The notes under the pieces: model-generated
What the model was told of the DNA's origin: nothing
The model's input: the letters and a program-made list of their open reading frames with translations, nothing else
Databases searched by the model: none
Program-made: the position numbers and the translations under genes
Shown: positions 28,136 to 42,904 of the stretch, in pieces
Layout of the letters: each line of letters opens with the position of its first letter
Position numbering within the stretch: position 1 is the first letter of the stretch
From: an uncultured Verrucomicrobiota bacterium
GTDB lineage: Bacteria > Verrucomicrobiota > Kiritimatiellia > CAIKKV01 > CAITUY01
DNA: 64,000 bases
NCBI GenBank assembly: GCA_964535015.1
Contig: CAZHRU010000003.1
Location: 3,940 to 67,939 of the forward strand
Reading direction: 5' to 3'

Positions 28136-29431
28136 TTATCCGGCGAACACGGCGCGGTGGCCATCCGGGCCGGCCTTTTCGGCGGCGCGGGTGATTTCCT
28201 CGCGGGCGATGGCGGCCCAGCGGTCAAAGCGTTCGGGGTGGTTCTCGCAGGTATGGGTGTCCTTCAGAATGAAGTCGAGTCGGCACCCGTTGTCCATGGC
28301 GGCTTCCAGTCCGGCGCGCAATTCCCCGCGGATGAGGGTTTCGTCGAACGATCCGACAAGGTGGGAGGGTTGGGGTTTCCAGCACATGACGAAGTTACCC
28401 TTCAGGCGTTCGGCACAGCGACGCAGGTCGGACCAGGGCGAAATGGAGATGCGGCGCATGCCGGGCAGTGCCGTGACGGCGTCAAGTTTGTGGGTCAGGT
28501 CCTCGCAGCAGCCGTAGCAGTTCAGCGGGAAGGGTTCGAGGAGTTTCCGTTCGTATGAGAGGGCGAACTCCGCGTGCTGCTCGGGGCTGACTTGGGCCAG
28601 TTCTTGCGCTTCGGCGAGTGCCCAGCGGTCGCGGGTACGGACGCGGGCGGGATCGAACCCGGCGGCGGGCAGGCCGTCGACATAGCCATGGGCGCCCTGA
28701 TTGATCGCGGGGCCATCATGGTTGCTGGCGAGGAGGTTTTGTTGCAGGGCCTGGGTGAGAACCTTCTGATGGCCCTCGGTCAGGAAGTGCATGGCCTCAT
28801 GAAGGAAACCGGGATTCTCGTACATATCCACCATCACTTGTTCAAGGCCGCGAAGTTGGGTCCATTCTCCCATCAGGTGATAGTAGGGTTTGATGCCGCC
28901 GGTGAGTTTCACGGGGAGCAGGTCGCCGACGAGATCCCGTGTTCGGGCCAAGGCGGCCTCAGTGGCGGTTTCGTCGTAGGTGATCTCGGGGTGGTGCATC
29001 GTCTTGAGGTTTGCGGGTTCCTTGACCACCGGGTCAAAAGCCCATGCTCCTTGGGCCTGGGTGCTGTCGGTGTGTTGGGCTTTCAGGCCCCACCCGGTGG
29101 AGTGGATTCGTTTGGCAACCCTGATGTAGCCATCGGCGACGGCGTCGTCGCGCCAGTGCTGGTGTCCATAGAGGGTGGCGCGCAGGTCCAATTCCAGCCA
29201 GCGGTCGGGGCCATAGGTGCATTGGAGGGAGGCGTTGGGCAGGATTTCGCGCCAGGATCCTTCGGGGATGATCCGGAAGATCGGGCGGCAGGGCCGCAGG
29301 CTGTTATGGTCACGCCACAAGCGACGGCGTTCCTCCTGGATTGGCAGGTTGGCGATGTCGCGAAGTTGACGGCACAGGTCGCGGATGACGGTGCGGTCTT
29401 CCGGGCGGATGGCTGGAATGGGTGTACTCAT
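28136..29431 (-). CDS. Hypothetical protein, URO-D (uroporphyrinogen decarboxylase / MtaA-CmuA methyltransferase)-like fold suspected.
   Basis: Start MSTPIPAIRPEDR at 29431. Weak family-like segments (…EQVMVDMYENPGFLHEAMHFLTEGH…, …YGCCEDLTHKLDAVTALPGMRRISISPW…). No decisive motif. Confidence 0.45.
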   Translation of the reverse strand: MSTPIPAIRPEDRTVIRDLCRQLRDIANLPIQEERRRLWRDHNSLRPCRPIFRIIPEGSWREILPNASLQCTYGPDRWLELDLRATLYGHQHWRDDAVADGYIRVAKRIHSTGWGLKAQHTDSTQAQGAWAFDPVVKEPANLKTMHHPEITYDETATEAALARTRDLVGDLLPVKLTGGIKPYYHLMGEWTQLRGLEQVMVDMYENPGFLHEAMHFLTEGHQKVLTQALQQNLLASNHDGPAINQGAHGYVDGLPAAGFDPARVRTRDRWALAEAQELAQVSPEQHAEFALSYERKLLEPFPLNCYGCCEDLTHKLDAVTALPGMRRISISPWSDLRRCAERLKGNFVMCWKPQPSHLVGSFDETLIRGELRAGLEAAMDNGCRLDFILKDTHTCENHPERFDRWAAIAREEITRAAEKAGPDGHRAVFAG

Positions 29432-29571
29432 GGCGGGTGAGTGCGCCGAAAAGGCGGTGGTTATTCCAGCAGATTTCCCAAATTCGGAGTTTGTTCCTCT
29501 CATTGAAGTGCACCCGGTTGCATGGTAGTGTTCGCATTCAATGGGGCTTCACAACAAGGCGATGGTGCACA

Positions 29572-32550
29572 ATGAATAGAATAGATGGACTTGCGTCGGC
29601 GGGAAGCGAAACGCCGCTGGAGGGATTGAGCAAGAGTTACGCACTATTGAAACTGGCGGTGGGAGCCCCGGATCGTTTTGTGACATGGGACGCGATTGTA
29701 TTGACGGCGTCGAGCGAGGAGCAGGCGCGGTTGTACCGGCGGCATCTGGAGGAAGTGCGTGTCCGTGGATTGATCGCGGCGGCGACGCGGACGGTGGTGG
29801 TGGCGGATCCGGGCGGGATGCGGATCGGGAGCGGCGGGGCGACGCTGCATGCGTTGCGGGTGCTGGCGCAGGAGTACTCGGCAGAGGCGGTGGGCGGGTG
29901 GCGGGTGCTTTTGGTGCATGCGGGCGGGGATAGCCGGCGAGTGCCGTGGGCGAACGTGTTCGGGAAGTGTTTCATTCCGTTTCCTCTGTTGGCGGATCCC
30001 GACCAGGCGGTGCCGACGCTATTTGATCACCAGTTGGCGGTGGCGGCGCCGTTAGCGGGACGGATGCCGGGTGCGGGATTGGTGTCGCTGGCGGGGGATG
30101 TATTGCCGTTGCTGAACACGAGCCGGGTGGGGTTGGTGGCGGATGGTGCGGTGGTAGTGACGGCGGCGGAATCGCTGGATGTGGCGGGGCGGCACGGGGT
30201 GATCGTGGCGGACGGGGATGGGCGGGTGGTGGATCTTCTGCAGAAGGCGGACCCGGAGACGTTGGCGGCGCGGGGTGCGCTGGTGGGTGGGGGGGCGGCC
30301 TTGCTGGACACGGGGATCTACGCGTTCTGCGGGGAGGTGTACCGGCGGTTGGTGGGGTTGGCAGGCGAGACGCCGGACCCGGTCGTGGAATTGGTGGCGT
30401 CGCGGCGGGAGTGCAGTCTTTACGAGGAGATCGCGTCGGCACTGGTGGCGTCGCGTCGCGAGTGGGTGCAGGGGCGGCCACTGGGGCCCCGGTTGGTTGG
30501 TGCGTTGGGTGAGGGGGTGTTGTGGAACCGGACGGTGCCGGAGTTATATTTTGTCCACTTGGGGACGACGGCGGAGATTCTGAATCACTTTTCGTTGAAT
30601 TGGGAGGGGCGGATCGGGCGGGTGGTTTCGGCGGATGTGGCAGGGGCGTTGGGGTCAGCGGCCGTAGTCTGTGCGACGACGGCGGGGCGCGAGACGACGG
30701 TGGGGGACAACAGTTTTCTTTACGGTTGCCGGCTGACGGGGGAGACGGCGGTCGGGAGTCGGTGTGTGGTCATGGGGGTTCATAGCCGGGGGTTGCTGCG
30801 GGTTCCGCCGAATCTTTGCGTATGGCAGTTGCCGTTGCGGCGGCGGGGGAAAGGGGCGCGCCGGTTTGCGTCGGTCTGTTGCGGGGTGGATGACTGTCCG
30901 AAGGACGAGTGGACGGCGGGGACATTTTGTAACCGCGAGTTTGCCGGCTGGATGCGGTCGCACGGGGTGGAGGCGGATGAGTTGTGGGGGGCGGGGGTGG
31001 CGCGGACGTTGTGGCACGCGCGGTTGTTTGCGCGGGTGGGTGCGGACGACGGGTTGGTTGTGTTGGGGTGGTTGTGGGGTGATGGGACGAAGGGTGGCGA
31101 GGGGGCGGCGTTATGGCGGGGGGCGGAACGGTTGAGTCTGGCCGAGTTGCATGCGGAGGTGGATTTCGGGGAGGTGGCGGAACGGTTGGCTCGGGTGCAG
31201 GATGGATTGATTTTGGACATTATGGAAAGGACAGTCCGGCACGGGATGAACCGGAATGTGCGGGCGTTGATGGGGCAGGCGTCGCCTGCGGTGCGACGCA
31301 CGAAGGCGTGGCGTGGTGTGGTCTCGGCGGCGGAGGGATGCGTCGAAGGCGGGGGGAGCCGGTCGTTGCAGGTTGCGGCAGATTTGTTTTTGGCGGATGG
31401 CAGGGCGGATGAGGCAGCGGCGGCGGAGCGCAAGGCGTTTGAGGCGATTGGGCGGGAGGTCGGGCGGTATGTGAAGTCGTACGAGGCGGTCAGGGTGTCG
31501 GACCTGGTGCCCGGGACGGTGGAGGAGACGTGTTTGCCGGTGCGGTTCGATTTGGCGGGAGGGTGGAGCGATACGCCGCCGTATTGTCTGGAGAATCCGG
31601 CGCGGGTTTTGAATATGGCCGTGGAGTTCGGGGGGCGTCGTCCGGTCATGGCGCGGGTGACGGCGTTGGCGGAGCGGGAATGGCGTTTTTACCAGGAGGA
31701 TACGGGTTTGGTCGAGGTGGTGCGGCCGGGGGAAGGGACGGGGGTGACCAGTTCGCTATCGGATCCGTTTGTGTTGTTGAAAGCGGCCTTGCAGTTGACG
31801 GGGTATGGGGCGGGACGGGGGATTCATCAGGGGGTGGAGGTGCGGACGCACACGGGAGTCCCGAAAGGGAGTGGGTTGGGTACGAGTTCAATCCTGGGTG
31901 CGGCGCTGGTGAGTGCGTTGCAGAAGTTGGCAGGCCGCAGGTGTGATGCGGAACCTGTGAGTGAACTGGTGTTGGTGCTGGAGCAGCGGATCACGACTGG
32001 CGGCGGGTGGCAGGATCAGGTTGGCGGATTGATGCCGGGCGTGAAGTGCATCACGTCGGCGCCGGTGCAGCCGATGCGGCTGGTGATCGAGCCGGTGCCG
32101 TTGTTACGGGAGACGGCGGTGGAGTTGGAGTCGCGTCTGGTGATCGCGTACACGGGATTGGACCGGTTGGCGAAGAACGTATTGCAGATCGTGGTGGGGC
32201 GGTATTTGAGGCGGGAGCGACGGGCGTTGAATGCGGTCCGGCGGTTGGTGGAGTTGGCGGATGAGGGGCGTGAGGCGCTGGTGCTGGGGCGGTTGGATGA
32301 CGTGGGGCGGGTGATGGAGGAAGTGTGGCGGGTACACCAGGAGTTGGATCCGCACTGCAGCAATGCGGGCGTGGACGCGATGTTCGACAAGGTTGCGGAT
32401 CTGGCGTCGGGCTGGAAGTTGGCCGGTGCGGGTGGAGGCGGGTTCATGGGGGTGTTGGGCAAGGACCCGGAGGCGGCGGAGCGGATCCGGCGGACCCTGG
32501 CGGGGTTGGGCGCCGGCGTCAAGGTGTATGATTGGCGGCTGGCCACCTGA
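29572..32550 (+). CDS. Bifunctional L-fucokinase / fucose-1-phosphate guanylyltransferase-like protein (FKP-like): N-terminal nucleotidyltransferase-type domain plus C-terminal GHMP kinase.
   Basis: N-terminal segment GSGGATLHAL...LLVHAGGDSRR. C-terminal GHMP motif THTGVPKGSGLGTSSILGAALVSAL. ~990 aa as for Bacteroides FKP. Start MNRIDGL at 29572. Confidence 0.65.
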   Translation: MNRIDGLASAGSETPLEGLSKSYALLKLAVGAPDRFVTWDAIVLTASSEEQARLYRRHLEEVRVRGLIAAATRTVVVADPGGMRIGSGGATLHALRVLAQEYSAEAVGGWRVLLVHAGGDSRRVPWANVFGKCFIPFPLLADPDQAVPTLFDHQLAVAAPLAGRMPGAGLVSLAGDVLPLLNTSRVGLVADGAVVVTAAESLDVAGRHGVIVADGDGRVVDLLQKADPETLAARGALVGGGAALLDTGIYAFCGEVYRRLVGLAGETPDPVVELVASRRECSLYEEIASALVASRREWVQGRPLGPRLVGALGEGVLWNRTVPELYFVHLGTTAEILNHFSLNWEGRIGRVVSADVAGALGSAAVVCATTAGRETTVGDNSFLYGCRLTGETAVGSRCVVMGVHSRGLLRVPPNLCVWQLPLRRRGKGARRFASVCCGVDDCPKDEWTAGTFCNREFAGWMRSHGVEADELWGAGVARTLWHARLFARVGADDGLVVLGWLWGDGTKGGEGAALWRGAERLSLAELHAEVDFGEVAERLARVQDGLILDIMERTVRHGMNRNVRALMGQASPAVRRTKAWRGVVSAAEGCVEGGGSRSLQVAADLFLADGRADEAAAAERKAFEAIGREVGRYVKSYEAVRVSDLVPGTVEETCLPVRFDLAGGWSDTPPYCLENPARVLNMAVEFGGRRPVMARVTALAEREWRFYQEDTGLVEVVRPGEGTGVTSSLSDPFVLLKAALQLTGYGAGRGIHQGVEVRTHTGVPKGSGLGTSSILGAALVSALQKLAGRRCDAEPVSELVLVLEQRITTGGGWQDQVGGLMPGVKCITSAPVQPMRLVIEPVPLLRETAVELESRLVIAYTGLDRLAKNVLQIVVGRYLRRERRALNAVRRLVELADEGREALVLGRLDDVGRVMEEVWRVHQELDPHCSNAGVDAMFDKVADLASGWKLAGAGGGGFMGVLGKDPEAAERIRRTLAGLGAGVKVYDWRLAT

Positions 32551-32612
32551 ATCACGCATTCTGGTTTCGATGATCGTTGACTCCGGCCTCTGTTCGGGTA
32601 TCCTTTTCCGTC

Positions 32613-33890
32613 ATGAATATTCTTGTTGTGGGCGGAGGGGGTCGCGAACATACCCTCGTGTGGAAACTGGTGAATGACAGCCGCCGGCCGAAGGTGTTTT
32701 GCGCGCCCGGTAATGCCGGCACGGCGGAACTTGCCACGAATCTGGATATCGGCGCCGAGGATATTCCGGCGCTCATGAGCTGGGCCCGGGAGCACCGGCC
32801 CGACCTGACGGTGGTGGGCCCCGAAGCGCCGTTGTGCGCGGGATTGGTGGACCTTCTGGAAAAGGAAGGATTGAAGGCCTTTGGTCCGTCACGGGCCGCG
32901 GCCCAGATCGAGGGTAGCAAGGTCTTTGCCAAGGACATCATGGTGGCTGCCGGGGTGCCGACAGCGAAGGCGAGTTTCTTTACCGATGCCGCGCTGGCGC
33001 TGGACTTCGTTCGTTCCATTGGTGCGCCGCTGGTGATCAAGGCCGAGGGGTTGGCGGCGGGTAAAGGGGTGACGGTCTGCGCCACGGTGGAGGAGGCCGA
33101 ACGTGCGGTACGGGAGTCGCTTGTGGATGGCGCCTTTGGCGAAGCCGGCAAGCGGATTCTGGTGGAGGAGTTCCTGGAAGGGGAGGAGGCGTCCATTCTG
33201 GCGCTGACCGACGGGAAGCGGGTGGTGTTGCTGGCCACGGCACAGGATCACAAGCGGGTTTTCGATAACGATCAGGGGCCCAATACGGGAGGCATGGGCG
33301 CCTATTCGCCGGCGCCGGTGGTTACGGCGGAGATGTTCCCCGCCATCGAGCGCGACGTGTTCGGACCGACGCTGGCGGAACTTGAGTTGCGCGGCATTCA
33401 CTACAAGGGCGTGCTCTATGCGGGACTGATGATGACCAAGAAGGGGCCCAAGGTTCTGGAGTTCAACTGCCGGTTCGGCGATCCCGAGACGCAGGTGATT
33501 ATTCCGCGCCTTGCCGGCGACCTGATACCCGCGCTGGAGGCGTGCATTGATGGGACCCTGCGGCCGGAACTGGTGACCTGGCGGGCGGAGTCCTGCGTGT
33601 GTGTGGTGATGGCGGCGGGTGGATACCCGGGGACCTACCGGAAGGGCGACGAAATCCGGGGCCTCAAGGAGGCGGCGAAGGTCAAGCAGGCCGTGGTATT
33701 CCATGCGGGAACGGCGTTGAGCAAGGGGCGCGTGGTGACGGCCGGCGGGCGGGTGCTGGGGGTGACGGCGCTGGGCAGCGGGTTGAAGGAGGCGGTGGAC
33801 CAAGCCTATGAGGCGGTGACCCGGATTGATTTCGACGGGGCCATCTACCGCACGGATATTGCGGCGAAGGCGTTCGGAAGGAAACAGTAA
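32613..33890 (+). CDS. purD: Phosphoribosylamine--glycine ligase.
   Basis: N-terminal motif MNILVVGGGGREHTLVWKL. ATP-grasp core. Family segment ...GGMGAYSPAP.... Confidence 0.9.
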   Translation: MNILVVGGGGREHTLVWKLVNDSRRPKVFCAPGNAGTAELATNLDIGAEDIPALMSWAREHRPDLTVVGPEAPLCAGLVDLLEKEGLKAFGPSRAAAQIEGSKVFAKDIMVAAGVPTAKASFFTDAALALDFVRSIGAPLVIKAEGLAAGKGVTVCATVEEAERAVRESLVDGAFGEAGKRILVEEFLEGEEASILALTDGKRVVLLATAQDHKRVFDNDQGPNTGGMGAYSPAPVVTAEMFPAIERDVFGPTLAELELRGIHYKGVLYAGLMMTKKGPKVLEFNCRFGDPETQVIIPRLAGDLIPALEACIDGTLRPELVTWRAESCVCVVMAAGGYPGTYRKGDEIRGLKEAAKVKQAVVFHAGTALSKGRVVTAGGRVLGVTALGSGLKEAVDQAYEAVTRIDFDGAIYRTDIAAKAFGRKQ

Positions 33891-33918
33891 AGGGATTAAC
33901 CTTTAGAGAAAGGGACTT

Positions 33919-34434
33919 ATGAGTACAGCAGAAGTGGCGTTGGTGATGGGGAGTGATTCGGATTGGCCACTATTGGAGGACGCCGTCGGTGTTCTGGCCA
34001 AGTTTGAGGTGGAGAGTGAAGTACGCGTCATGTCGGCGCACCGGACGCCTGATTTGGCGGCGACGTTTTCCAAGCAGGCGGCGGGGCGCGGGCTTAAGGT
34101 AATCATTGCCGCGGCGGGCGGGGCGGCGCATCTGGCGGGCGTCATCGCGGCGCATACGACCCTTCCGGTTATCGGGATTCCGGTGGCCAGCAATCTCATG
34201 GGAGGCATGGATTCGCTGTTGTCCACGGTGCAGATGCCGGCGGGGATTCCCGTGGCGACGGTGGCGGTGGGGAAGAGCGGGGCCACGAATGCGGCGCTAC
34301 TGGCTGTTCAGATTCTGGCGCTGGGAAACCCGGCGTTGACGCGCAAGTTGGTTCAATACAAGAAGTCACTCGGGGAGAAAGTAAAGGCCGGCAACGCGCG
34401 GATCCAGATTGAGGCGGCGAAGAAGAAGGGGTGA
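33919..34434 (+). CDS. purE: N5-carboxyaminoimidazole ribonucleotide mutase.
   Basis: Family segment [18 protein letters not shown]...VMSAHRTPD...[23 protein letters not shown]. Confidence 0.9.
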
Positions 34435-34529
34435 GGGCTGGGGGTGTGAGTTGTGAATGGTGAATCGTGACAAGAATCCGGAGTTCAGAATCCAGAACGG
34501 ATAGTGAGACCATCCGTGCCGTCGGACGT

Positions 34530-35495
34530 GTGACGCGGGCGCGGGTGTTCGTTCTCGGGTTGTCCCTGCTGGTGTCCGCTTCGTATGCGCGGGCGGCCTT
34601 GAGTATCGGGGAGATGATACAGTTTCTGGAGGATCGCGGGTTGCCGGGCGTGTCGACCACGGCGGTGGAAAGTGCGATTACCGGGTTGATCCGATCGATA
34701 GATTCCGAGGCCAGGATCTGCACACCGGAGGAGGCCGCGTCTATCCGCACCGAATGGACCGGCGTGGGGCAGAGCGGGGCAACCAACGGCGGGTGGTCAG
34801 GGTCGGTGGACATGTTCGAGTCCTGGCCGGAGGGTCTTGCCTATCTGAAGATCAAGGGGCTTTACCGCGGTGGTGGAGTGGAGATCATGGGGCACTTGCG
34901 GACATTGTCGAAGAGGGCGGGGGTGATCATGGATCTCCGGGGGACCGACGGGGCCGACTTGGATGCCGTGGTGGCGTTGGCGAGTCCGTTCTATTGTTCC
35001 GGGGATGTGCTTTTCCGTGTGGAGACCCGGGCGGGGGCGCCGGTGGAAACCCGTGTGGCCGGCGAGGGGACCGCGTTGAAGACGCCGTTGCTGGTGTTGA
35101 TTGATCATGACACGCGTTGTGCGGCGGAAACCCTGGTGGCGTTATGGAACGGCAAACCGGGTGTCATGTTGATTGGCGAGTCCACGCGGGGGGATACCGG
35201 GGTGCGTGATCTGTTGCCGTTGCCGGATGGGCGTTTCCTGTATATGGCCACGAAAAGGCTGGTTCCGGTGGCGACGGCGTATGGGGCGAAGGGGGTGTGT
35301 CCCGACGTGGCGGTGGATACGAAGGGCGGGAGTGTAACACCCCTGGTGCATGCGCCCGGCCACGGCCGCCCGCTCAGTGCGAAGTCGCTGGAAGACCGGG
35401 ACTTGATGATGCGGGTGGATTCCGATCCGGTGTTGAGGCGGGGAACCGACATTCTCCTGGCGTTGCGGGCAATTGACAACCATGGCAATCCCTGA
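34530..35495 (+). CDS. S41-family peptidase (C-terminal processing peptidase-like), secreted. Start uncertain (GTG 34467 / 34530).
   Basis: Signal peptide RARVFVLGLSLLVSASYA. S41 core segments GVIMDLRGTDGADLD and PLLVLIDHDTRCAAETLVALWN...LIGESTRGDTG. Confidence 0.6.
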   Translation: MTRARVFVLGLSLLVSASYARAALSIGEMIQFLEDRGLPGVSTTAVESAITGLIRSIDSEARICTPEEAASIRTEWTGVGQSGATNGGWSGSVDMFESWPEGLAYLKIKGLYRGGGVEIMGHLRTLSKRAGVIMDLRGTDGADLDAVVALASPFYCSGDVLFRVETRAGAPVETRVAGEGTALKTPLLVLIDHDTRCAAETLVALWNGKPGVMLIGESTRGDTGVRDLLPLPDGRFLYMATKRLVPVATAYGAKGVCPDVAVDTKGGSVTPLVHAPGHGRPLSAKSLEDRDLMMRVDSDPVLRRGTDILLALRAIDNHGNP

Positions 35496-36543
35496 CTCCA
35501 TCATTATTCCCGTGGATGCCAGGCGGCCCGACCCCGCGGCGGTTCGGCGTGCCGTCAAGGTGTTGCGAGCCGGGGGGCTCGTGATTGTTCCGACGGAGAC
35601 GGTGTACGGGTTGGCGGCGGACCCCGGGGTGGACGGGGCGGAGGATCGTATCTACGAGGCCAAGGCGCGGGATCGGGGGAAGCCGATTCCCCTACTGGCG
35701 ACCAGCCAGGAGGCGGTGGCGCGATGGGGGGGCACATTGTCGTGTGCGGCGCGGCGGTTGGCGCGGCGATACTGGCCGGGGCCCCTGACCCTGGTGTTGC
35801 CCTGTGGCGACCGGGCGGAGGGTTTCAGGGTGCCGGACCATGCGGTGACTCAGGCGTTGCTCAAGGCGGCGGGAGGGGTATTGCGGGTGACCAGTGCCAA
35901 CGTGAGTGGAGATCCGGCGGCGAGGAATGCCCAGGAGGCGCTGGCGGCACTGGGTGACCGCGTGGGACTGGTGTTGGACGCCGGGCCGGCGGCGCTGGGC
36001 CGGGAGAGTACGGTGGTGGATGCCACCGGCGAGGTTGTGAAGGTCCTGCGTGAGGGGGCGATTCCGTCGGGCCGGATTCTGGCCAGGCCCCTGGTTTTGT
36101 TTGTTTGCACCGGCAATATCTGCCGGAGTCCGATGGCCGAGTATCTCCTGCGCCGGTGGCTGGGGCCGGAGAGTTCCTGGGAGGTGGGTTCCGCCGGCGT
36201 TTCGACGGCGGATGGGTTGGAGGCCAGCGAGGCGGCGGTAATGGCGATGGAGGACGCGGGGCTGGATGCGTCGGGGCACCGGAGCCGGCGCCTGACCCCG
36301 GCGCTGGTTGACGCCGCCGACCTGGTTGTGGTAATGACCGATGCGCACCGTCGGATCGTCCTCGGTCAGTTTCCCGGAGCCCGCCACAAGGTGGTCCTGT
36401 TGAATGCATTCAACAGTGTCCGGCGGAACGAGGATGTGGAGGATCCCATCGGGATGTCGCTCGATGTCTACCGGCAGACGCGGGATGAGATGAATGCGGC
36501 CATGCCGGATCTGGTGTTGCATTTGCACGAATTGCTTCAATAA
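35473..36543 (+). CDS. Fusion protein: L-threonylcarbamoyladenylate synthase (TsaC/YrdC/Sua5 domain) plus low-molecular-weight protein tyrosine/arginine phosphatase (LMW-PTP).
   Basis: YrdC segment LVIVPTETVYGLAADP...LTLVLPCGD...RVTSANVSGDP. P-loop LFVCTGNICRSPMAEY, with DP catalytic Asp later. Single ORF, no stop between domains. Confidence 0.8.
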   Translation: MTTMAIPDSIIIPVDARRPDPAAVRRAVKVLRAGGLVIVPTETVYGLAADPGVDGAEDRIYEAKARDRGKPIPLLATSQEAVARWGGTLSCAARRLARRYWPGPLTLVLPCGDRAEGFRVPDHAVTQALLKAAGGVLRVTSANVSGDPAARNAQEALAALGDRVGLVLDAGPAALGRESTVVDATGEVVKVLREGAIPSGRILARPLVLFVCTGNICRSPMAEYLLRRWLGPESSWEVGSAGVSTADGLEASEAAVMAMEDAGLDASGHRSRRLTPALVDAADLVVVMTDAHRRIVLGQFPGARHKVVLLNAFNSVRRNEDVEDPIGMSLDVYRQTRDEMNAAMPDLVLHLHELLQ

Positions 36544-36558
36544 CTCGCAAGGAAGAAC

Positions 36559-38241
36559 ATGAAAATAGCGATTGGCGCGGACCACGGCGGTTTTGAGTTG
36601 AAAACCCACCTGCTCGGATGGCTCCGGGAGCGCGGGATTACGGTGGAGGACGTGGGTTGCTACAGTAACGAAGCGGCGGACTATCCCGACTATGCCCGTC
36701 TGGTGTCGGTGATGGTGTCCGAAGGGTTGGTTGACCAGGGCATCCTGATTTGCCGGACCGGGCTGGGGATGAGCATGGCGGCCAACAAGTTTCCGCGCGT
36801 ACGTGCGGCGTTATGCCTGACGCCGGACATGGGGCGGGTGGCCCGGGTTCATAACAACGCCAATGTGTTGGTGCTGGGAAGCGACAACAATTCCCATGAC
36901 AAGATTGGGGCCATCGTCAAGGCGTGGTGCGAGGCCCGGTTTGAAGGGGATGAACGGCACCAGCGGCGCGTGAACAAGATTGGCGCGATGGGGGGATCGG
37001 CTGTGGAGATGGCGGCGGTTGGCCTGGTGGATCCCGAGATTTACGATGCGATCAAGGGCGAGGAGGATCGCGAACAGAAGACGCTGGATTTGATCGCCTC
37101 CGAGAATTATGCCAGCCGGGCGGTGCGCGAGGCGCAGGGGTCGCTGATGACCAACAAGTATGCGGAAGGCTATCCTGGCAAGCGGTACTACAACGGGTGC
37201 GAGTTTGTTGACGTGGCCGAGCGTCTGGCGATTGAGCGGGCCAAGGCCCTGTTCGGCGCCGAGCATGCGAATGTCCAGCCGCATTGCGGGAGTTCGGCCA
37301 ATATGGCGGTTTACTTCGCGATGTTGCAGCCGGGCGATACGATTCTGGCCATGAGTCTGGCGCATGGGGGGCACCTGACACACGGGCACAAGGTCAACTT
37401 TTCCGGGCGTCTTTTCAACATCGTCTCCTACGGGGTCAACAAGGGGACGGAGTTGATTGATTACGACGAGGTGGAGGGACTGGCAAAACAGCACAAGCCC
37501 AAGTTGATTGTTGCCGGCGCCAGTGCCTATCCGCGGGTGCTCGAGTTTGCGCGGTTGCGCCAGATTGCCGACCGTGTCGGTGCCCTGCTGATGGTGGACA
37601 TGGCGCACATTGCCGGTCTGATCGCCGCCGGAGTGCATCCCAACCCCGTGCCTTACAGCGACTTTGTGACGACCACCACGCATAAGACGTTGCGCGGTCC
37701 GCGTAGCGGCATGATCCTGTGCCGTGCGGTCTACGCCCAGGAAATCGACAAGACGGTATTCCCGGGATTGCAGGGCGGTCCGCTGATGCATACGATTGCC
37801 GCCAAGGCCGTGTGCTTCAAGGAAGCCGCGTTGCCGGACTTCAAGGCCTACCAGCGGCAGGTGGTGACGAATGCACGGTTATTGGCGGACTATCTTTCCA
37901 AGCACGGGATGCGGATTGTGTCGGGCGGCACGGATAACCACCTGATGCTGGTGGATCTGACGGGTATTGGCAGTACCGGCAAGGATGCGGCGGTGGCCTT
38001 GGAGAAGGCGGGAATCGTGGTCAACAAGAACGCGATCCCGTTCGATGCCAAGCCGCCGGCGGTGACCTCCGGTATCCGCATCGGGACTCCGGCGGTGACC
38101 ACGCGGGGTCTCAAGGACGCCGAGATGACGCTGTTGGGGCAATGGATTGTGGATGCGGTCAAGCATCAGGGGGATGGGAAACGGTTGGAGAAGATCCGGG
38201 GCGAGGTCCAGGCGCTGGCACTGCGATTTCCGATACCGTAG
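36559..38241 (+). CDS. glyA: Fusion protein: ribose-5-phosphate isomerase B (RpiB/LacAB) plus serine hydroxymethyltransferase (GlyA).
   Basis: RpiB segment [15 protein letters not shown]...[21 protein letters not shown] segments [55 protein letters not shown] and PLP-Lys region [14 protein letters not shown]. 560 aa = 145 + 415. Confidence 0.85.
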
Positions 38242-38264: not shown

Positions 38265-38798
38265 GTGATTCTTCGCGATTTGACCAAAGACGAGATGGCC
38301 ATGGTGGAACAGGTGGGCCATCAGCAGGAGGTGGCCCGCGGGGACTGGATCGTGAGGGAAGGCGATGTGGGTCAGTCGTTTTTCCTGGTGATCAGCGGGC
38401 GAGTGGAAGTGCGCAAGAACCTTGGCATGGACAAGTACAAGCGGTTGGTCGAACTGGGGCCGTTGGATGTTTTCGGCGAGGTGTGTTTTCTTGGGGTGGC
38501 ATCCCGGTCGGCGGGGGTGGTGGCGCTGGAGCCGACGGTGGTGATGGAGTTCAGACAGGATGACTTCGAAAAATTGATCGCCGTGCATCCGTTGATCGGA
38601 CTCAAGTTATACCGCGGGATCGCCCGCGAGTTGGCGCAACGCCTGGCCTGTGTGGATAGCGATCTGAGGGATGCGCTGTTGTGGGCGCTGGGCGACAAAC
38701 GGATGGCGGCGGACCCCGTGGTGCTTTCCCAGCGCAAGTTGACGCTGGCGCCGCTGTCCTCCCGTGTCGGCGGCAACGCCAGGATTGTCGTCGAGTAA
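38265..38798 (+). CDS. Cyclic-nucleotide-binding (cNMP/CAP effector) domain protein without a DNA-binding domain.
   Basis: cNMP-binding segment IVREGDVGQSFFLVISGRVEVRKN...FGEVCFLG. GGAGG RBS 7 nt before the GTG at 38265; the track ORF is 5'-extended into glyA. Confidence 0.65.
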   Translation: MILRDLTKDEMAMVEQVGHQQEVARGDWIVREGDVGQSFFLVISGRVEVRKNLGMDKYKRLVELGPLDVFGEVCFLGVASRSAGVVALEPTVVMEFRQDDFEKLIAVHPLIGLKLYRGIARELAQRLACVDSDLRDALLWALGDKRMAADPVVLSQRKLTLAPLSSRVGGNARIVVE

Positions 38799-38800
38799 AG

Positions 38801-39454
38801 ATGAAGCCGCGTGACATTCCCTTTGTCCATCGGCGTTTGAAAGCGCATTTCGAATCCACACGGAGTCCGGTGGCGGCCTTCATGGCAACGCGGACGAATG
38901 ATCCCTACCGTGTCCTGGTGGCCACGATCCTCAGTTCACGGACCAAGGACCAGACGACAGAGGTTGTGTCGCAACGCCTGTTTGAGGCGGCGCCGAGGGC
39001 GGCGGCGCTTCGCGGAATACCCGTGGCGCGCTTGGAAACCCTGCTACGTCCTGTCGGGTTCTTCCGGACCAAAGCGCGCATGCTGAAGCAGTTGCCGGAT
39101 GCGCTGGATGAACGGTTTGGCGGCCGTATTCCGGAGGCGGTGGAGGATCTGGTGCGTCTGCCGGGGGTGGGGCGTAAGACGGCCAACCTGGTGGTGTCGG
39201 AGGCGTTTGACCGGCCGGGCATTTGTGTGGATGTGCATGTACACCGGATCTGCAACCGGTTGGGGTTGATCAAGACCGGGACGCCTGAAGCGACGGAAAT
39301 GACGTTGCGGCGGCTGTTGCCTGTCCGTTATTGGAAGACGTGGAACCGTTATCTGGTGGCGTTCGGACAAACCTTATGTACGCCGCGGAATCCCAAGTGT
39401 GCGGTTTGCCCGGTGCAAGCGCGGTGTGATACAGGGGCGGGGACGGTTCGGTAA
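38801..39454 (+). CDS. nth: Endonuclease III (HhH-GPD DNA glycosylase with [4Fe-4S] cluster).
   Basis: HhH segment LVRLPGVGRKTANLV. Cluster motif CTPRNPKCAVCPVQARC. Start MKPRDIP at 38801, 2 nt after the preceding stop. Confidence 0.9.
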   Translation: MKPRDIPFVHRRLKAHFESTRSPVAAFMATRTNDPYRVLVATILSSRTKDQTTEVVSQRLFEAAPRAAALRGIPVARLETLLRPVGFFRTKARMLKQLPDALDERFGGRIPEAVEDLVRLPGVGRKTANLVVSEAFDRPGICVDVHVHRICNRLGLIKTGTPEATEMTLRRLLPVRYWKTWNRYLVAFGQTLCTPRNPKCAVCPVQARCDTGAGTVR

Positions 39455-40063: not shown

Positions 40064-42904
40064 ATGAAGCATGGCCTATTTGTCGCGGGTTGTTGTGCGC
40101 TAGTGATGGTCGCCCTACTGGCCGGGGGATGCGCCTCGACGGCGATCAAAGGGACTCCGTTCTACACAGCCGTGGATGAGAAGCCGGCGGGGCCGCCGGA
40201 GGATCGTATCTGGGCCTGGCCCTTGGTCTACTATCGCGATCCGGCGCTTTCGATCCTGTGGCCCATCTTCGAGAAGAACGACCAATGGCTTGCCGTAAGG
40301 CCGGTTTTCTCGATCTACGGGCTGGACCGTGGCAAGCATCAGTACAATGTGCTGTGGCCGATCGCCCAGTGGGATTGGGAGACGGGCAACCATCGCGTCT
40401 TTCCCTATTTCTGGGGGGCTAATTACCGGGCGTTGTTCCCCTTGTATTGGCACTTCAATCACCCGTTGAACGGGTACGGAACCGATACGCTTTTCCCGTT
40501 GTGGTATTACACCCGGAACGCGGGGCAGTACAGTTTCTGGGCGGTGGGTCCGGTGTTCCACTCCAAGAATCGCGGGGGTGAAACCGGCTGGCACGTGTGG
40601 CCGGTGACGGGGCATTACGCGGGTTCGGATCACAGTTACCGGTTCTTTGCCTGGCCGCTGGCCCACCAGTGGCGCGGGCACGGGGACCGGGGTGCGGATA
40701 CGATCATTCCGTTATTCTATCGTGGATGGGGCCCAGACAGCCGCACGTTTATCAGTCCGTTGTGGATGACGCGCTCCAATGAAGGGGAAACGTGGCGATG
40801 TCTGCCACCCCTGTTCTACGAGCAATCCGGCAAAGGGGCGTCGCGGTTCCTTTCCCTGCCCTGGTCCTATGGTGCCGAGCGGGACGGCAGTGCGTGGCAT
40901 CTCGCTTTTCCTTTCTACTTCGATAAAGTTGCTTCCAATCGCGTCACCCGTCTGACGCCTTTGGGCGGGTCGAGGACGGTGGGTGAACGAACGGAGTGGG
41001 GTGTTGTGCCGGTGCTTTCGTGGGGGACAACGACACCCACGAGCCATTCCACCTGGGTCGCGGCGGGCCTGGCCCATCATTCGCAGGATGGCGCCAGTCG
41101 GTCACACCATGTATTGCCCCTGTACTACTCCAGCAGTGATTCGGATAGTTCCACCTTCATTTCCATTCCCTATAGTCAGCGGCGGACCGTTAGTGGCGCC
41201 CAATGGGATCTGGCGTTCCCATTGGTGTACCGGTACCGGTCGCCGGAGGCGAACCGGTGGATAACTCCGTTGGCGGCGGGCGGCGGGACGACCGATGGGC
41301 GCGAACGCTGGCATGCCATTCTGCCCCTGTACTATAGTCAGCAAGACGGGCAGGGGAGTTCGCTGGTCACCCTGGCGGGGGGATATCACCGCGATCCATC
41401 CGGGACGCGGTGGAATGCGTGGCCGTTGCTGACCTGGCGGACGGAGGACAAGGAGGGTTCCGATTTCTGGGCACTGGCACCCCTGATTCATGCCCGGCAC
41501 GAAGCGGGATATTCCACACACCATGTGTTACCCGTTTACTACTGGAACAGTCGTACGGACAGTCTTGTTTCCCTGCTGGCCGCGCGTTGGCAGACAGCGG
41601 CATCCAATACGGTGACGTTGGTCCCGCCGGCGTTGAGTTGGAAGGTGACGTCGACAAACCGGTCGGATCTCTGGTTGGCTGGCGGACTGGCCAGGGCCAG
41701 TTGGGGGGCGAAGCCGGGGCCCCATCATGTCGTTCCCTTGTATTACCGTGACCGGGAACGCGACACCTTCATTTCGCCGGTTTTTGCTCAATGGGAGGCC
41801 AGTGATGAGTCGCGGGTTACTGTGATTCCGCCCCTATTGGGTGCGGGAAGTTCATCACCGCAGAACAGGGATCTGTGGTTTCTGGCGGGATTGGGCAAGG
41901 CCAGTTGGGGTGAACATCCGGGGGCCCGCTATCTGGTTCCCCTTTTCTATGAGAACCCGCAGACGGGCTCGTTTATTTCGCCGTTCTTTACCCGGTCCAC
42001 TGCCGGAACGCGCGACACCCGTTTCTACCCGCCGCTCCTGTCTCTTGACATCACCGACGGATCGCAGCGCGACATCTGGGGGTTGGCCGGCCTCGCGCAT
42101 TACTCCGGCGATTCAGTGACCCGCACCAGCAGTGGCTACCTTCTGCCGCTTTTCTATTATGACTCCACCAACACGCTTCTCACTCCGCTCTTCGGACGTC
42201 ATCGCCAAAATGAGAACGGGTTCTTCTATCCGCTCACGCCGCTGGCTGGTGTCCGCACGGGGCAACGGTCGGGGGGGTGGTTGTTTCCGCTTTTTTCGCA
42301 CACGCGCCAGCGGGAAAGTGGTGACATCAACGGCATGGTTCTTTGGGGTCCGTACTGGCGTGATCATGTCCGCAAGGGGGCGTTTCTGTTTCCGTTCTTC
42401 TATCACCAACGTGATCTTGCGCCACTGAACAGCAAAGAGAGCGTCAATCGCAAGACGTATGTCTTTCCGACGTTCTGGAAGCGGACGTTGGCCTACACGG
42501 AGGTCGGGTCCAATTCAAGAAAGCGGATTCTGGATACGAAGAATATGTTTGTGCCGTTTTGGGCGCACACGGAGACAGGGGTTTTGGGGAAGGCGCCTGA
42601 TGTGGCTGAGACGTCCGTCCTGCTGGGGGCCTGGAACAGCCGGAAAGAGAAAGTGGCGGCGCCGGGTTCAGATCAGACCGTTACGCAATGCCGGAAGCGG
42701 CTCCTGTGGTGGCTCTGGCGATATGACCGGAACGGCGCGGATATGGCGATGGATATATTTCCGGGGATCAGCATTGACCGGAAGGGCGACGGATTCAAGA
42801 AGACGGCCTTCTTCTACCGCCTCTACCGCAACGAGGTAACGCCCGACGGCAAGCGCAAGATGGATATCCTGTTCATTCCGATCCTGCGCCCCCGCCAGGG
42901 GTAG
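40064..42904 (+). CDS. Large repeat lipoprotein (946 aa) built of ~15-18 tandem W/Y/P-rich modules; function unknown.
   Basis: Lipobox LLAGGCAS. Recurrent module ...DLW.LAGL[AG]+ASWG..PG.[HRY][HY]+VPL[FY]Y......[ST]FISP.F... (HHVLPLYY, HHVVPLYY, RYLVPLFY, GYLLPLFY, AILPLYY ...). Confidence 0.6.
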   Translation: MKHGLFVAGCCALVMVALLAGGCASTAIKGTPFYTAVDEKPAGPPEDRIWAWPLVYYRDPALSILWPIFEKNDQWLAVRPVFSIYGLDRGKHQYNVLWPIAQWDWETGNHRVFPYFWGANYRALFPLYWHFNHPLNGYGTDTLFPLWYYTRNAGQYSFWAVGPVFHSKNRGGETGWHVWPVTGHYAGSDHSYRFFAWPLAHQWRGHGDRGADTIIPLFYRGWGPDSRTFISPLWMTRSNEGETWRCLPPLFYEQSGKGASRFLSLPWSYGAERDGSAWHLAFPFYFDKVASNRVTRLTPLGGSRTVGERTEWGVVPVLSWGTTTPTSHSTWVAAGLAHHSQDGASRSHHVLPLYYSSSDSDSSTFISIPYSQRRTVSGAQWDLAFPLVYRYRSPEANRWITPLAAGGGTTDGRERWHAILPLYYSQQDGQGSSLVTLAGGYHRDPSGTRWNAWPLLTWRTEDKEGSDFWALAPLIHARHEAGYSTHHVLPVYYWNSRTDSLVSLLAARWQTAASNTVTLVPPALSWKVTSTNRSDLWLAGGLARASWGAKPGPHHVVPLYYRDRERDTFISPVFAQWEASDESRVTVIPPLLGAGSSSPQNRDLWFLAGLGKASWGEHPGARYLVPLFYENPQTGSFISPFFTRSTAGTRDTRFYPPLLSLDITDGSQRDIWGLAGLAHYSGDSVTRTSSGYLLPLFYYDSTNTLLTPLFGRHRQNENGFFYPLTPLAGVRTGQRSGGWLFPLFSHTRQRESGDINGMVLWGPYWRDHVRKGAFLFPFFYHQRDLAPLNSKESVNRKTYVFPTFWKRTLAYTEVGSNSRKRILDTKNMFVPFWAHTETGVLGKAPDVAETSVLLGAWNSRKEKVAAPGSDQTVTQCRKRLLWWLWRYDRNGADMAMDIFPGISIDRKGDGFKKTAFFYRLYRNEVTPDGKRKMDILFIPILRPRQG

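What the first reader, a model, noticed from the sequence alone, without database searches (positions are those of the whole stretch)
35473..38241. Two adjacent in-frame fusions (TsaC-LMW-PTP and RpiB-GlyA) that mirror the Bacillus ywlC-ywlE-ywlF-glyA gene neighbourhood
In B. subtilis the genes ywlC (tsaC), ywlE (LMW arginine/tyrosine phosphatase), ywlF (rpiB) and glyA lie next to each other as separate genes. Here the same four functions appear in the same order but collapsed into two polypeptides.

The first ORF is 356 aa: a YrdC domain, then 'GAIPSGRILARPLV', then the CTGNICRSP P-loop phosphatase. The second is 560 aa: the ~145-aa RpiB fold, then a canonical SHMT beginning ...[16 protein letters not shown].

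Deep synteny conserved through gene fusion suggests functional coupling. Candidates are the t6A tRNA modification / phosphatase pair and the pentose-phosphate / one-carbon pair. An RpiB-SHMT fusion is not a commonly annotated architecture.
Basis: partly seen in the sequence, partly recalled or inferred. Interest (0 to 1): 0.6.

Follow-up and report, generated by a model that had tools for sequence, protein, structure and literature searches.

The report
Two real, lineage-wide enzyme gene fusions
Two neighbouring genes each encode a genuine two-enzyme fusion protein (a tRNA-modification enzyme joined to a small phosphatase, and a sugar-phosphate isomerase joined to serine hydroxymethyltransferase), but both fusions are common in this bacterial lineage and one was already noted in 2008, so the finding is real but fairly ordinary.

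Summary
ORF 35473/35482..36543 encodes YrdC/TsaC + LMW phosphatase, and ORF 36559..38241 encodes RpiB + SHMT. Neither has an internal stop, and all four catalytic motif sets are intact. The fusions are not sequencing artefacts: two other assemblies carry the region at 99.5% nucleotide identity with no indels. More than 120 protein clusters carry each architecture.

The rarity claim fails. RpiB-SHMT occurs across Kiritimatiellia, Lentisphaeria/Victivallales and an Akkermansia-labelled MAG. These SHMT domains form one clade in a neighbour-joining tree. A phosphatase-RpiB-SHMT protein (Minf_1669) was described in Methylacidiphilum in 2008.

The tsaC-ptp-rpiB-glyA order is conserved from Bacillota to Planctomycetia and Omnitrophota. 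Within it the phosphatase attaches to TsaC (here), to RpiB-SHMT, or directly to SHMT (Chthoniobacterales).

The most likely reading is neighbour-gene fusion in an old housekeeping string, with independent catalytic domains and fixed 1:1 co-expression. RpiB-SHMT sits just after purD-purE, which fits supply of purine precursors.

The one unexplained point is why the phosphatase fuses to different neighbours, together with the confidently predicted rigid TsaC-phosphatase unit (pTM 0.88). Interest is low to moderate.

The parts
35482..36543 (+). Gene for the TsaC-LMW phosphatase fusion protein. It is 353 aa from ATG 35482; the ORF lister starts at TTG 35473, giving 356 aa. It overlaps the end of the upstream S41 peptidase gene.
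   Evidence: (P0121 is 100% identical and 353 aa)
35557..36057 (+). YrdC/TsaC domain (residues 29-195), a short TsaC1-type with no Sua5_C domain. The TETVYGL, K64-x-R66 and S141-A-N143 motifs are present.
   Evidence: T41, T43, Y45, G46, A142 invariant; K64, R66, S141, N143 in at least 90% of 46 homologues
36058..36093 (+). Short TsaC-phosphatase linker of about 10-12 residues. Its length is constant in close relatives. The model predicts it with high confidence (pLDDT about 96).
36094..36513 (+). YwlE-like LMW phosphatase domain (residues 208-347). The P-loop C212-TGNI-C217-R218-S219 lies at 36106..36129, and the general-acid D324-P325 is present.
36544..36558 (+). 15-nt spacer (CTCGCAAGGAAGAAC) between the TAA stop and the next ATG. 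It contains an AGGAAG purine-rich stretch. The two ORFs are in the same reading frame.
36559..38241 (+). Gene for the RpiB-SHMT fusion protein (560 aa).
36565..36981 (+). RpiB domain (residues 3-141). D8, H9, C65 (36751..36753), T67, H98, N99 and R133-H134-x-R136-R137 are conserved.
   Evidence: (alignment to C. thermocellum RpiB, 3HE8)
36982..37026 (+). RpiB-SHMT linker of about 15 residues. Its length is constant in 41 of 42 fused homologues and its sequence is variable. Model confidence is low (pLDDT about 50).
37027..38238 (+). SHMT domain (residues 157-560), with the PLP-lysine K376 in TTTHKT at 37684..37686.
32577..35495 (+). Upstream co-directional genes purD (32577..33890), purE (33919..34434) and an S41-family peptidase (34467..35495). 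The same purD-purE-S41-tsaC order is found in relative L003. An S41 protease also precedes RpiB-SHMT in L024.
38265..39454 (+). Downstream co-directional genes for a cNMP-binding protein (38265..38798) and endonuclease III (38801..39454).

Best explanation
These are two genuine bifunctional proteins. They were made by fusing adjacent genes of an old, widely conserved housekeeping gene string, tsaC - ywlE-like phosphatase - rpiB - glyA. Shown: rpiB and glyA are adjacent and co-directional in many phyla, and they are a single reading frame throughout Kiritimatiellia, Lentisphaeria and other Verrucomicrobiota. Inferred: the rpiB-glyA fusion arose essentially once in that lineage, by loss of the stop codon and intergenic spacer. 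Shown: the small phosphatase gene is joined to different neighbours in closely related lineages. It is joined to TsaC here, to RpiB-SHMT in others, and directly to SHMT in Chthoniobacterales. Shown: all four active sites are conserved. Inferred: each polypeptide therefore carries two independent activities, namely threonylcarbamoyl-AMP synthesis plus Cys-dependent phosphate-monoester hydrolysis, and ribose-5-phosphate isomerisation plus serine/glycine/one-carbon interconversion. Inferred: RpiB and SHMT are tethered by a constant-length, low-confidence linker and share no intermediate, so the benefit is fixed 1:1 co-expression rather than channelling. Inferred: both supply nucleotide synthesis (R5P to PRPP; glycine and C1 units for the purine ring), and the genes sit directly after purD-purE. 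Predicted: TsaC-phosphatase forms a compact rigid two-domain unit. The role of the phosphatase there is not established.
For: Domain calls and curated cut-offs are. Catalytic residues are invariant or nearly invariant in 42 RpiB-SHMT and 46 TsaC-PTP homologues, and they align to solved RpiB, YwlE and Sua5 structures. The fusions are not an error: independent assemblies agree with 13 SNPs and no indels, and more than 120 clusters carry each architecture. One search shows the conserved neighbourhood with variable fusion joints across 80 species-level loci. Pfam confirms individual cases. In the SHMT NJ tree the Verrucomicrobiota-type fused forms make one clade, next to unfused Planctomycetia/Omnitrophota genes with the same order. 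The purD-purE context is conserved in L003. zwf lies next to PTP-SHMT in L047. SHMT is fused elsewhere to DHFR, thymidylate kinase and FolB. E. coli glyA belongs to the PurR purine regulon (PMC12651746). Hou et al. 2008 drew a similar serine-pathway/pentose-phosphate inference for Minf_1669.
Against: No enzymatic or expression data exist for any of these fusions. Monophyly rests on a single neighbour-joining tree without support values. Some MAG taxon labels ('Nitrospirota' L021, 'Coriobacteriales' L049) suggest independent origins or mis-binning. The co-expression rationale does not explain why a protein phosphatase belongs in this string at all. It also does not explain why that phosphatase is predicted to pack rigidly against TsaC. 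The promoter/terminator scan gave nothing above chance, so operon structure is inferred only from tight spacing. I could not check whether the genome has other rpi, glyA or tsaC copies; only the 64-kb window was tested.
Confidence: 0.75

Rival explanations
1. The phosphatase is a functional hub rather than a passenger. It regulates or assists its fusion partners. It could do this by dephosphorylating TsaC, RpiB, SHMT or their clients. Alternatively it could act as an integral accessory domain of the TC-AMP synthase, sitting where Sua5-type enzymes carry the Sua5_C domain.
For: Three different fusion partners occur within one cassette: TsaC-PTP, PTP-RpiB-SHMT and PTP-SHMT. AlphaFold gives a very confident rigid TsaC-PTP model that includes the linker, with pLDDT 95 and pTM 0.88. 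The phosphatase catalytic Cys, Arg and Asp are conserved in all the fusion types. The P-loop residue reported to set pArg versus pTyr specificity varies freely among orthologues (T/I/V/L/S). That is odd for a dedicated pArg phosphatase.
Against: The gene order is conserved, so any neighbour fusion needs only the loss of a stop codon, and fusion partners may simply reflect adjacency. Superposition on Sua5/TsaC2 is poor (TM about 0.5, rmsd about 15 A), so the domain is not placed like Sua5_C. Many relatives keep the phosphatase as a free gene or lack it nearby. No literature links YwlE to TsaC, RpiB or SHMT as substrates.
Confidence: 0.12
2. The fusions are artefacts: a sequencing or assembly error hides a stop codon or frameshift at the junctions.
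For: None was found. A terminator-like hairpin at 36081-36096 lies at the TsaC-PTP junction, but the scan found no more such sites than chance.
Against: Two independent assemblies have the same frames, with 13 SNPs and 0 indels. Hundreds of homologues from unrelated samples share the same lengths and both domains. Linker length is conserved.
Confidence: 0.01
3. RpiB and SHMT are fused for substrate channelling or allosteric cross-talk between the pentose-phosphate and one-carbon pathways.
For: The linker length is constant across the family. Hou et al. 2008 suggested a 'tight connection' between the two pathways.
Against: By established pathway knowledge, the two reactions share no metabolite. 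The linker is predicted with low confidence (pLDDT about 50, pTM 0.65), so no fixed interface is predicted. Most bacteria keep the two as separate adjacent genes.
Confidence: 0.04
4. The LMWPc domain is not a protein phosphatase but an arsenate reductase or a small-molecule phosphatase.
For: The LMW-PTP fold also houses thioredoxin-coupled ArsC, and there are weak NCBIfam ArsC hits.
Against: The ArsC models score 37-53 bits against cut-offs of 158-215. The domain has only the two P-loop cysteines (C212, C217) and lacks the downstream Cys pair of thioredoxin-coupled ArsC (sequence). The best sequence and structure matches are YwlE-type phosphatases at 38-40% identity and TM 0.87-0.91.
Confidence: 0.05

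Closest known systems
Minf_1669 of Methylacidiphilum infernorum V4 (LMW phosphatase - RpiB - SHMT), noted by Hou et al. 2008, PMC2474590
   Same: It has the same RpiB-SHMT joint and comes from the same broad phylum (Verrucomicrobiota sensu GTDB). The same phosphatase family is involved. Triple fusions of this type are the window protein's relatives at 66-69% identity (P0087, P0111).
   Different: In the window the phosphatase domain is on the upstream TsaC polypeptide, not on RpiB-SHMT. I did not retrieve or align the Minf_1669 sequence itself.
The Bacillus/Firmicutes ywlC(tsaC)-ywlD-ywlE-ywlF(rpiB)-ywlG-glyA neighbourhood
   Same: It has the same four functions in the same order and orientation (L074, L026, L060, L065). 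In S. aureus, ptpB lies next to glyA.
   Different: The genes are separate there and are often interleaved with mntP, DUF436 or others. TsaC is the long Sua5 type with a Sua5_C domain. The phosphatase has Thr in the P-loop.
YwlE/PtpB phospho-arginine phosphatases (PDB 4PIC, 4KK3, 4ETN)
   Same: These are the best sequence and structure matches to the phosphatase domain (38-40% identity, TM 0.87-0.91). They share the C-X4-C-R-S P-loop and the D-P general acid.
   Different: The window has Ile where YwlE and PtpB have the Thr that favours pArg over pTyr. The window domain is also fused to TsaC.
Sua5/TsaC2 (YrdC domain + Sua5_C domain; PDB 6F87, 3AJE, 9D3H)
   Same: It has the same N-terminal catalytic YrdC domain. 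It is also a two-domain protein of similar size, with an alpha/beta C-terminal domain.
   Different: The C-terminal domain here is LMWPc, not Sua5_C. The long gating linker is absent. The overall superposition is poor (TM about 0.5, rmsd about 15 A).
Other N-terminally extended SHMTs (DHFR-SHMT, DHFR-Tmk-SHMT, FolB-SHMT, MeaB-SHMT)
   Same: In each, SHMT is the C-terminal module of a fusion with a folate or nucleotide-precursor enzyme.
   Different: The partner domains and lineages differ. I did not examine these further.

Membership tests
L-threonylcarbamoyladenylate synthase TsaC/YrdC (TIGR00057, PF01300) | Profile score above the curated cut-off | tested here: met
   TIGR00057 scores 138.5 bits against a cut-off of 123.2, and PF01300 scores 151.5 against 25.1.
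L-threonylcarbamoyladenylate synthase TsaC/YrdC (TIGR00057, PF01300) | Catalytic K-x-R and S-x-N motifs and the TxxYGL motif | tested here: met
   K64-A-R66, S141-A-N143 and T41-E-T-V-Y-G-L are aligned to P. abyssi Sua5 and conserved in 46 homologues.
L-threonylcarbamoyladenylate synthase TsaC/YrdC (TIGR00057, PF01300) | Thr/bicarbonate/ATP-dependent TC-AMP formation | not testable with these tools
   This needs an enzyme assay.
Sua5/TsaC2 subtype | C-terminal Sua5_C domain (PF03481) packed against the YrdC domain | tested here: not met
   There is no PF03481 hit, whereas L026 TsaC has one. The model superposes on Sua5 only over the YrdC domain.
Low-molecular-weight Cys phosphatase (PF01451) | C-X5-R-(S/T) P-loop and D-P general acid | tested here: met
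   CTGNICRS is at residues 212-219 and D324-P325 is present. C212, N215, C217, R218, S219, D324 and P325 are invariant in 46 homologues.
YwlE-type phospho-arginine phosphatase | Closest similarity to YwlE rather than to Wzb or eukaryotic LMW-PTPs | tested here: met
   4PIC, 4KK3 and 1ZGG score E 1e-23 to 1e-24, against 1e-16 for Wzb and 1e-8 for mammalian enzymes. Foldseek gives 38-40% identity.
YwlE-type phospho-arginine phosphatase | Thr at P-loop position X5 (Thr11 of YwlE/PtpB), which favours pArg over pTyr | tested here: not met
   The window has Ile. Orthologues vary between T, I, V, L and S. The criterion is taken from PMC8001253.
Thioredoxin-coupled arsenate reductase (ArsC, LMW-PTP fold) | Profile score above cut-off and a downstream Cys pair | tested here: not met
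   The scores are 51-53 bits against cut-offs of 174-215. There is no cysteine outside the P-loop.
Ribose-5-phosphate isomerase B (TIGR01120, PF02502) | Profile score above the equivalog cut-off, and better than the LacA/LacB models | tested here: met
   TIGR01120 scores 153.9 against 138.65. The LacA/LacB models are far below their cut-offs.
Ribose-5-phosphate isomerase B (TIGR01120, PF02502) | Catalytic Cys, Thr, His-Asn and Asp-His residues and the C-terminal Arg cluster | tested here: met
   D8, H9, C65, H98, N99, R133, H134, R136 and R137 are invariant, and T67 is present in at least 90% of sequences. They are aligned to 3HE8.
Serine hydroxymethyltransferase (NF000586, PF00464) | Profile score above cut-off and the PLP-binding Lys in T-T-T-H-K-T | tested here: met
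   NF000586 scores 633.7 against 335. T373, T374, H375, K376 and T377 are invariant. Full-length matches to solved SHMTs reach E 1e-165.
Minf_1669-type phosphatase-RpiB-SHMT triple fusion | RpiB and SHMT in one reading frame | tested here: met
Minf_1669-type phosphatase-RpiB-SHMT triple fusion | LMWPc domain at the N-terminus of the same polypeptide | tested here: not met
   In the window a TAA stop and a 15-nt spacer separate LMWPc from RpiB. Relatives L003 and L010 do have the triple form.

The most novel reading that the evidence does not exclude
The YwlE-like phosphatase is not a bystander in this cassette. It would be a dedicated partner of TC-AMP synthase and of RpiB/SHMT. It is fused to three different neighbours (TsaC, RpiB-SHMT, SHMT), it is predicted to form a rigid unit with TsaC, and its 'specificity' residue is unconstrained. 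Together these would point to an uncharacterised role, such as a built-in accessory or regulatory domain of t6A synthesis, or a link between translation-fidelity and nucleotide-precursor metabolism. That would differ from the stress-related phospho-arginine phosphatase role known from Firmicutes.
Probability: 0.12. Interest if true: 0.55.

Novelty: new member of a known kind. Interest (0 to 1): 0.27.

Why it matters
The value is mainly for annotation and comparative genomics. Public pipelines label these proteins by only one domain ('ribose 5-phosphate isomerase B', 'glycine hydroxymethyltransferase', 'L-threonylcarbamoyladenylate synthase', 'protein-tyrosine phosphatase'). Metabolic reconstructions of Kiritimatiellia, Lentisphaeria and Verrucomicrobiota can therefore wrongly score glyA, rpiB or the phosphatase as missing. 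The shifting fusion joints also give a clean Rosetta-stone hint. The widespread but unexplained association of a YwlE-like phosphatase with tsaC, rpiB and glyA may be functional, and that could be tested in a tractable relative such as Akkermansia.

Tried and rejected
- **Hidden stop or frameshift:** rejected.
- **LMWPc as the structural equivalent of Sua5_C:** Foldseek aligns both domains in sequence order, but the global fit is TM about 0.5 with rmsd about 15 A. The hhalign extension into the Sua5 linker is low-confidence. I did not adopt this idea.
- **Arsenate-reductase reading of the LMWPc domain:** rejected.
- **Promoter/terminator scan of 31.5-40.5 kb:** nothing above chance.
- **Literature for a described TsaC/YrdC-LMW-phosphatase fusion, or for YwlE acting on GlyA, RpiB or TsaC:** nothing found in the searchable library.
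- **afdb50 fold search for UniProt-catalogued examples:** the library was unavailable.
- **Four-domain TsaC-PTP-RpiB-SHMT polyprotein:** not seen among the best 120 hits of either search or in the 80 loci.
- **Excess of same-frame unfused rpiB|glyA pairs (21 of 33):** noted, but not used as evidence. The locus ranking probably favours same-frame pairs, because a tblastn alignment can run through a single stop.
- **Second copies of the four domains:** none in the 64-kb window. The rest of the genome could not be checked.


Full report
**1. Observation.**
The ORF lister gives 35473..36543 (+, 356 aa from TTG) and 36559..38241 (+, 560 aa). Homologues of the first protein are 353 aa (P0121, 100% identical), so ATG 35482 is the probable start.

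Pfam finds Sua5_yciO_yrdC (29-195) plus LMWPc (208-347) in the first protein. It finds LacAB_rpiB (3-141) plus SHMT (157-530) in the second. NCBIfam scores exceed the curated cut-offs for TC-AMP synthase (TIGR00057), RpiB (TIGR01120) and SHMT (NF000586).

There are no internal stops. Two independent assemblies from other sequencing runs (L001, L002) cover the region at 99.5% nucleotide identity, with 13 mismatches and no gaps.

**2. Are the domains functional?**
The RpiB domain aligns to C. thermocellum RpiB (3HE8) with the Asp-His, Cys65, Thr67, His98-Asn99 and C-terminal Arg residues in place. The phosphatase domain aligns to YwlE (4PIC) and to the T. tengcongensis LMW-PTP (4EGS), with the CTGNICRS P-loop and the D-P motif. 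The TsaC domain aligns to P. abyssi Sua5 with TETVYGL, K-x-R and S-A-N.

These residues are invariant or at least 90% conserved in alignments of 42 fused RpiB-SHMT and 46 fused TsaC-phosphatase homologues. The SHMT PLP-lysine K376 is also invariant. All four active sites are therefore under purifying selection.

**3. How widespread is it?**
Every one of the best 120 clusters (90% identity level) for each query carries both domains. Identity goes down to 65% for RpiB-SHMT and to 45% for TsaC-phosphatase. Source names include Kiritimatiellia, Victivallales and Lentisphaerae.

In an exhaustive HMMER search of 1.84 billion representatives (50% identity level), I counted only about eight to ten fused RpiB-SHMT forms among the top hits. 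The family is well populated but phylogenetically compact.

I scanned one genome per species and tested 80 loci for shared reading frames. In-frame RpiB-SHMT occurs in MAGs labelled Kiritimatiellae, Pontiella, Lentisphaeria, Victivallales, Verrucomicrobiota, 'PVC group' and Akkermansia sp. There are also isolated cases labelled Nitrospirota and Coriobacteriales.

Elsewhere rpiB and glyA are adjacent but separate. This holds for Acidobacteriota, Desulfobulbia, Actinobacteria, Alphaproteobacteria, Selenomonas, Erysipelothrix, Eremiobacterota, Bipolaricaulota, Omnitrophota and Planctomycetia.

In a neighbour-joining tree of the SHMT domain, the Verrucomicrobiota-type fused forms make one clade. 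That clade lies beside the unfused Planctomycetia/Omnitrophota genes, and the 'Nitrospirota' fusion lies apart from it. This suggests one main origin plus rare independent events. The tree has no support values.

**4. The cassette and its moving joints.**
The order tsaC - phosphatase - rpiB - glyA recurs with different fusion boundaries:

| Arrangement | Where seen |
|---|---|
| TsaC-PTP \| RpiB-SHMT | window, L004, L008 |
| TsaC \| PTP \| RpiB-SHMT | L005, L006, L007; PTP \| RpiB-SHMT also in L009 and L011, where no TsaC was detected |
| TsaC \| PTP-RpiB-SHMT | L003; PTP-RpiB-SHMT also in L010, where no TsaC was detected |
| PTP-SHMT without RpiB | six Chthoniobacterales/Verrucomicrobiae loci; Pfam-confirmed in L047 and L073 |
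| TsaC-PTP \| RpiB \| SHMT | L050 (Omnitrophota), L071 (Planctomycetia) |
| All four separate | L016, L026 |

These states are interleaved among close relatives in the SHMT tree, so the phosphatase has been re-attached several times. In the window the two ORFs are in the same frame, separated only by TAA and five codons. This shows how little change such fusions need.

L074 reads tsaC-mntP-ptp-MCP-rpiB-DUF436-glyA, so the genes are ordered but interleaved. The Firmicute TsaC is the long Sua5 type.

**5. Prior knowledge.**
Hou et al. 2008 described Minf_1669 of Methylacidiphilum infernorum as an 'unusual protein' with SHMT, LMW phosphatase and RpiB domains. They inferred a tight link between the serine and pentose-phosphate pathways. 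I found no paper describing the TsaC-LMW-phosphatase fusion. Database entries exist, but each is named after a single domain.

**6. Mechanism.**
AlphaFold models RpiB (pLDDT about 90) and SHMT well. The 15-residue linker scores about 50 and pTM is 0.65. The linker has constant length and variable sequence.

From established knowledge, both enzymes are obligate homodimers with interface active sites, and they share no metabolite. I therefore infer a tether that fixes stoichiometry rather than a channel.

The metabolic logic is supply of nucleotide precursors:
- The genes follow purD and purE here and in L003.
- zwf follows PTP-SHMT in L047.
- SHMT is fused elsewhere to DHFR, thymidylate kinase and FolB.
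- E. coli glyA is in the PurR regulon.

TsaC-phosphatase behaves differently. It is modelled with pLDDT 95 and pTM 0.88, including the short linker, which suggests a rigid unit. It does not superpose on Sua5 beyond the YrdC domain.

The phosphatase is closest to YwlE arginine phosphatases. However, it has Ile at the P-loop position where Thr favours phospho-arginine, and that position varies among orthologues (T/I/V/L/S). Its substrate is therefore open.

**7. Verdict.**
The fusions are real and probably bifunctional. They belong to a lineage-wide architecture that is already partly described, so this is a new member of a known kind. The residual interest lies in the unexplained, repeatedly re-fused phosphatase.

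Noticed in passing
window 1-64000: GC skew is strongly positive throughout the window (+0.01 to +0.43 per 2-kb bin, and about +0.2 to +0.4 over the first 40 kb). The confirmed genes around the finding are all on the + strand. The high G+C content also produces many long spurious antisense ORFs.
   Followed up: no
window 36541-36561: The TsaC-PTP and RpiB-SHMT ORFs are in the same reading frame, separated only by TAA plus five codons (CTC GCA AGG AAG AAC). Loss of a single stop codon would give a four-domain protein of about 920 aa. No such four-domain protein appeared among the relatives examined.
   Followed up: partly
loci L015-L080 (unfused rpiB|glyA pairs): 21 of 33 adjacent but unfused rpiB|glyA pairs in other phyla have the two genes in the same frame, against about 11 expected. 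This probably reflects how the loci were ranked, because a tblastn alignment can run through one stop codon. It has not been tested on an unbiased sample.
   Followed up: partly
PDB entry 4EGS: The chain that best matches the phosphatase domain is named 'Ribose 5-phosphate isomerase RpiB' in the sequence file. The entry title, however, is a low-molecular-weight protein tyrosine phosphatase from T. tengcongensis. The rpiB name probably spilled over from the neighbouring or fused gene.
   Followed up: no
P0255, P0259, P0266, P0321: Other N-terminally extended SHMT architectures exist in public data: DHFR-SHMT, DHFR-thymidylate kinase-SHMT, FolB-SHMT and MeaB-SHMT.
   Followed up: no
L047 5350-8917; L073 3097-6132: Chthoniobacterales-type LMWPc-SHMT fusions lack RpiB. 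In L047 glucose-6-phosphate dehydrogenase lies immediately downstream. In L073 the stop-to-stop frame extends about 400 residues upstream of the phosphatase domain with no Pfam match, and the true start is unknown.
   Followed up: partly
window 40064-42904 (+): A 946-aa ORF is rich in repeated W/Y/P-containing motifs (for example 'PLFY', 'PLYY', 'WPL') and has a hydrophobic N-terminus. It has no Pfam match.
   Followed up: no
window 29422-32550 (+): A 1042-aa protein combines a fucose pyrophosphorylase domain with GHMP kinase domains. This is the architecture of a bifunctional fucokinase/GDP-fucose pyrophosphorylase. It lies just upstream of purD.
   Followed up: no
window 36081-36106: A terminator-like hairpin plus T-run (GGCCAGGCCCCTGGTT TTGTTTGTTT) lies exactly at the TsaC-phosphatase domain junction. 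The scan found no more such sites than in shuffled sequence, so it is probably coincidental.
   Followed up: partly
L024 3591-7674; window 34467-38241; L003 4026-8184: An S41-family (tail-specific-protease-like) peptidase gene lies upstream of the cassette in the window, in a Kiritimatiellia-type relative (L003) and in an Akkermansia-labelled MAG (L024). In L024 it directly precedes RpiB-SHMT. This extends the conserved neighbourhood.
   Followed up: partly
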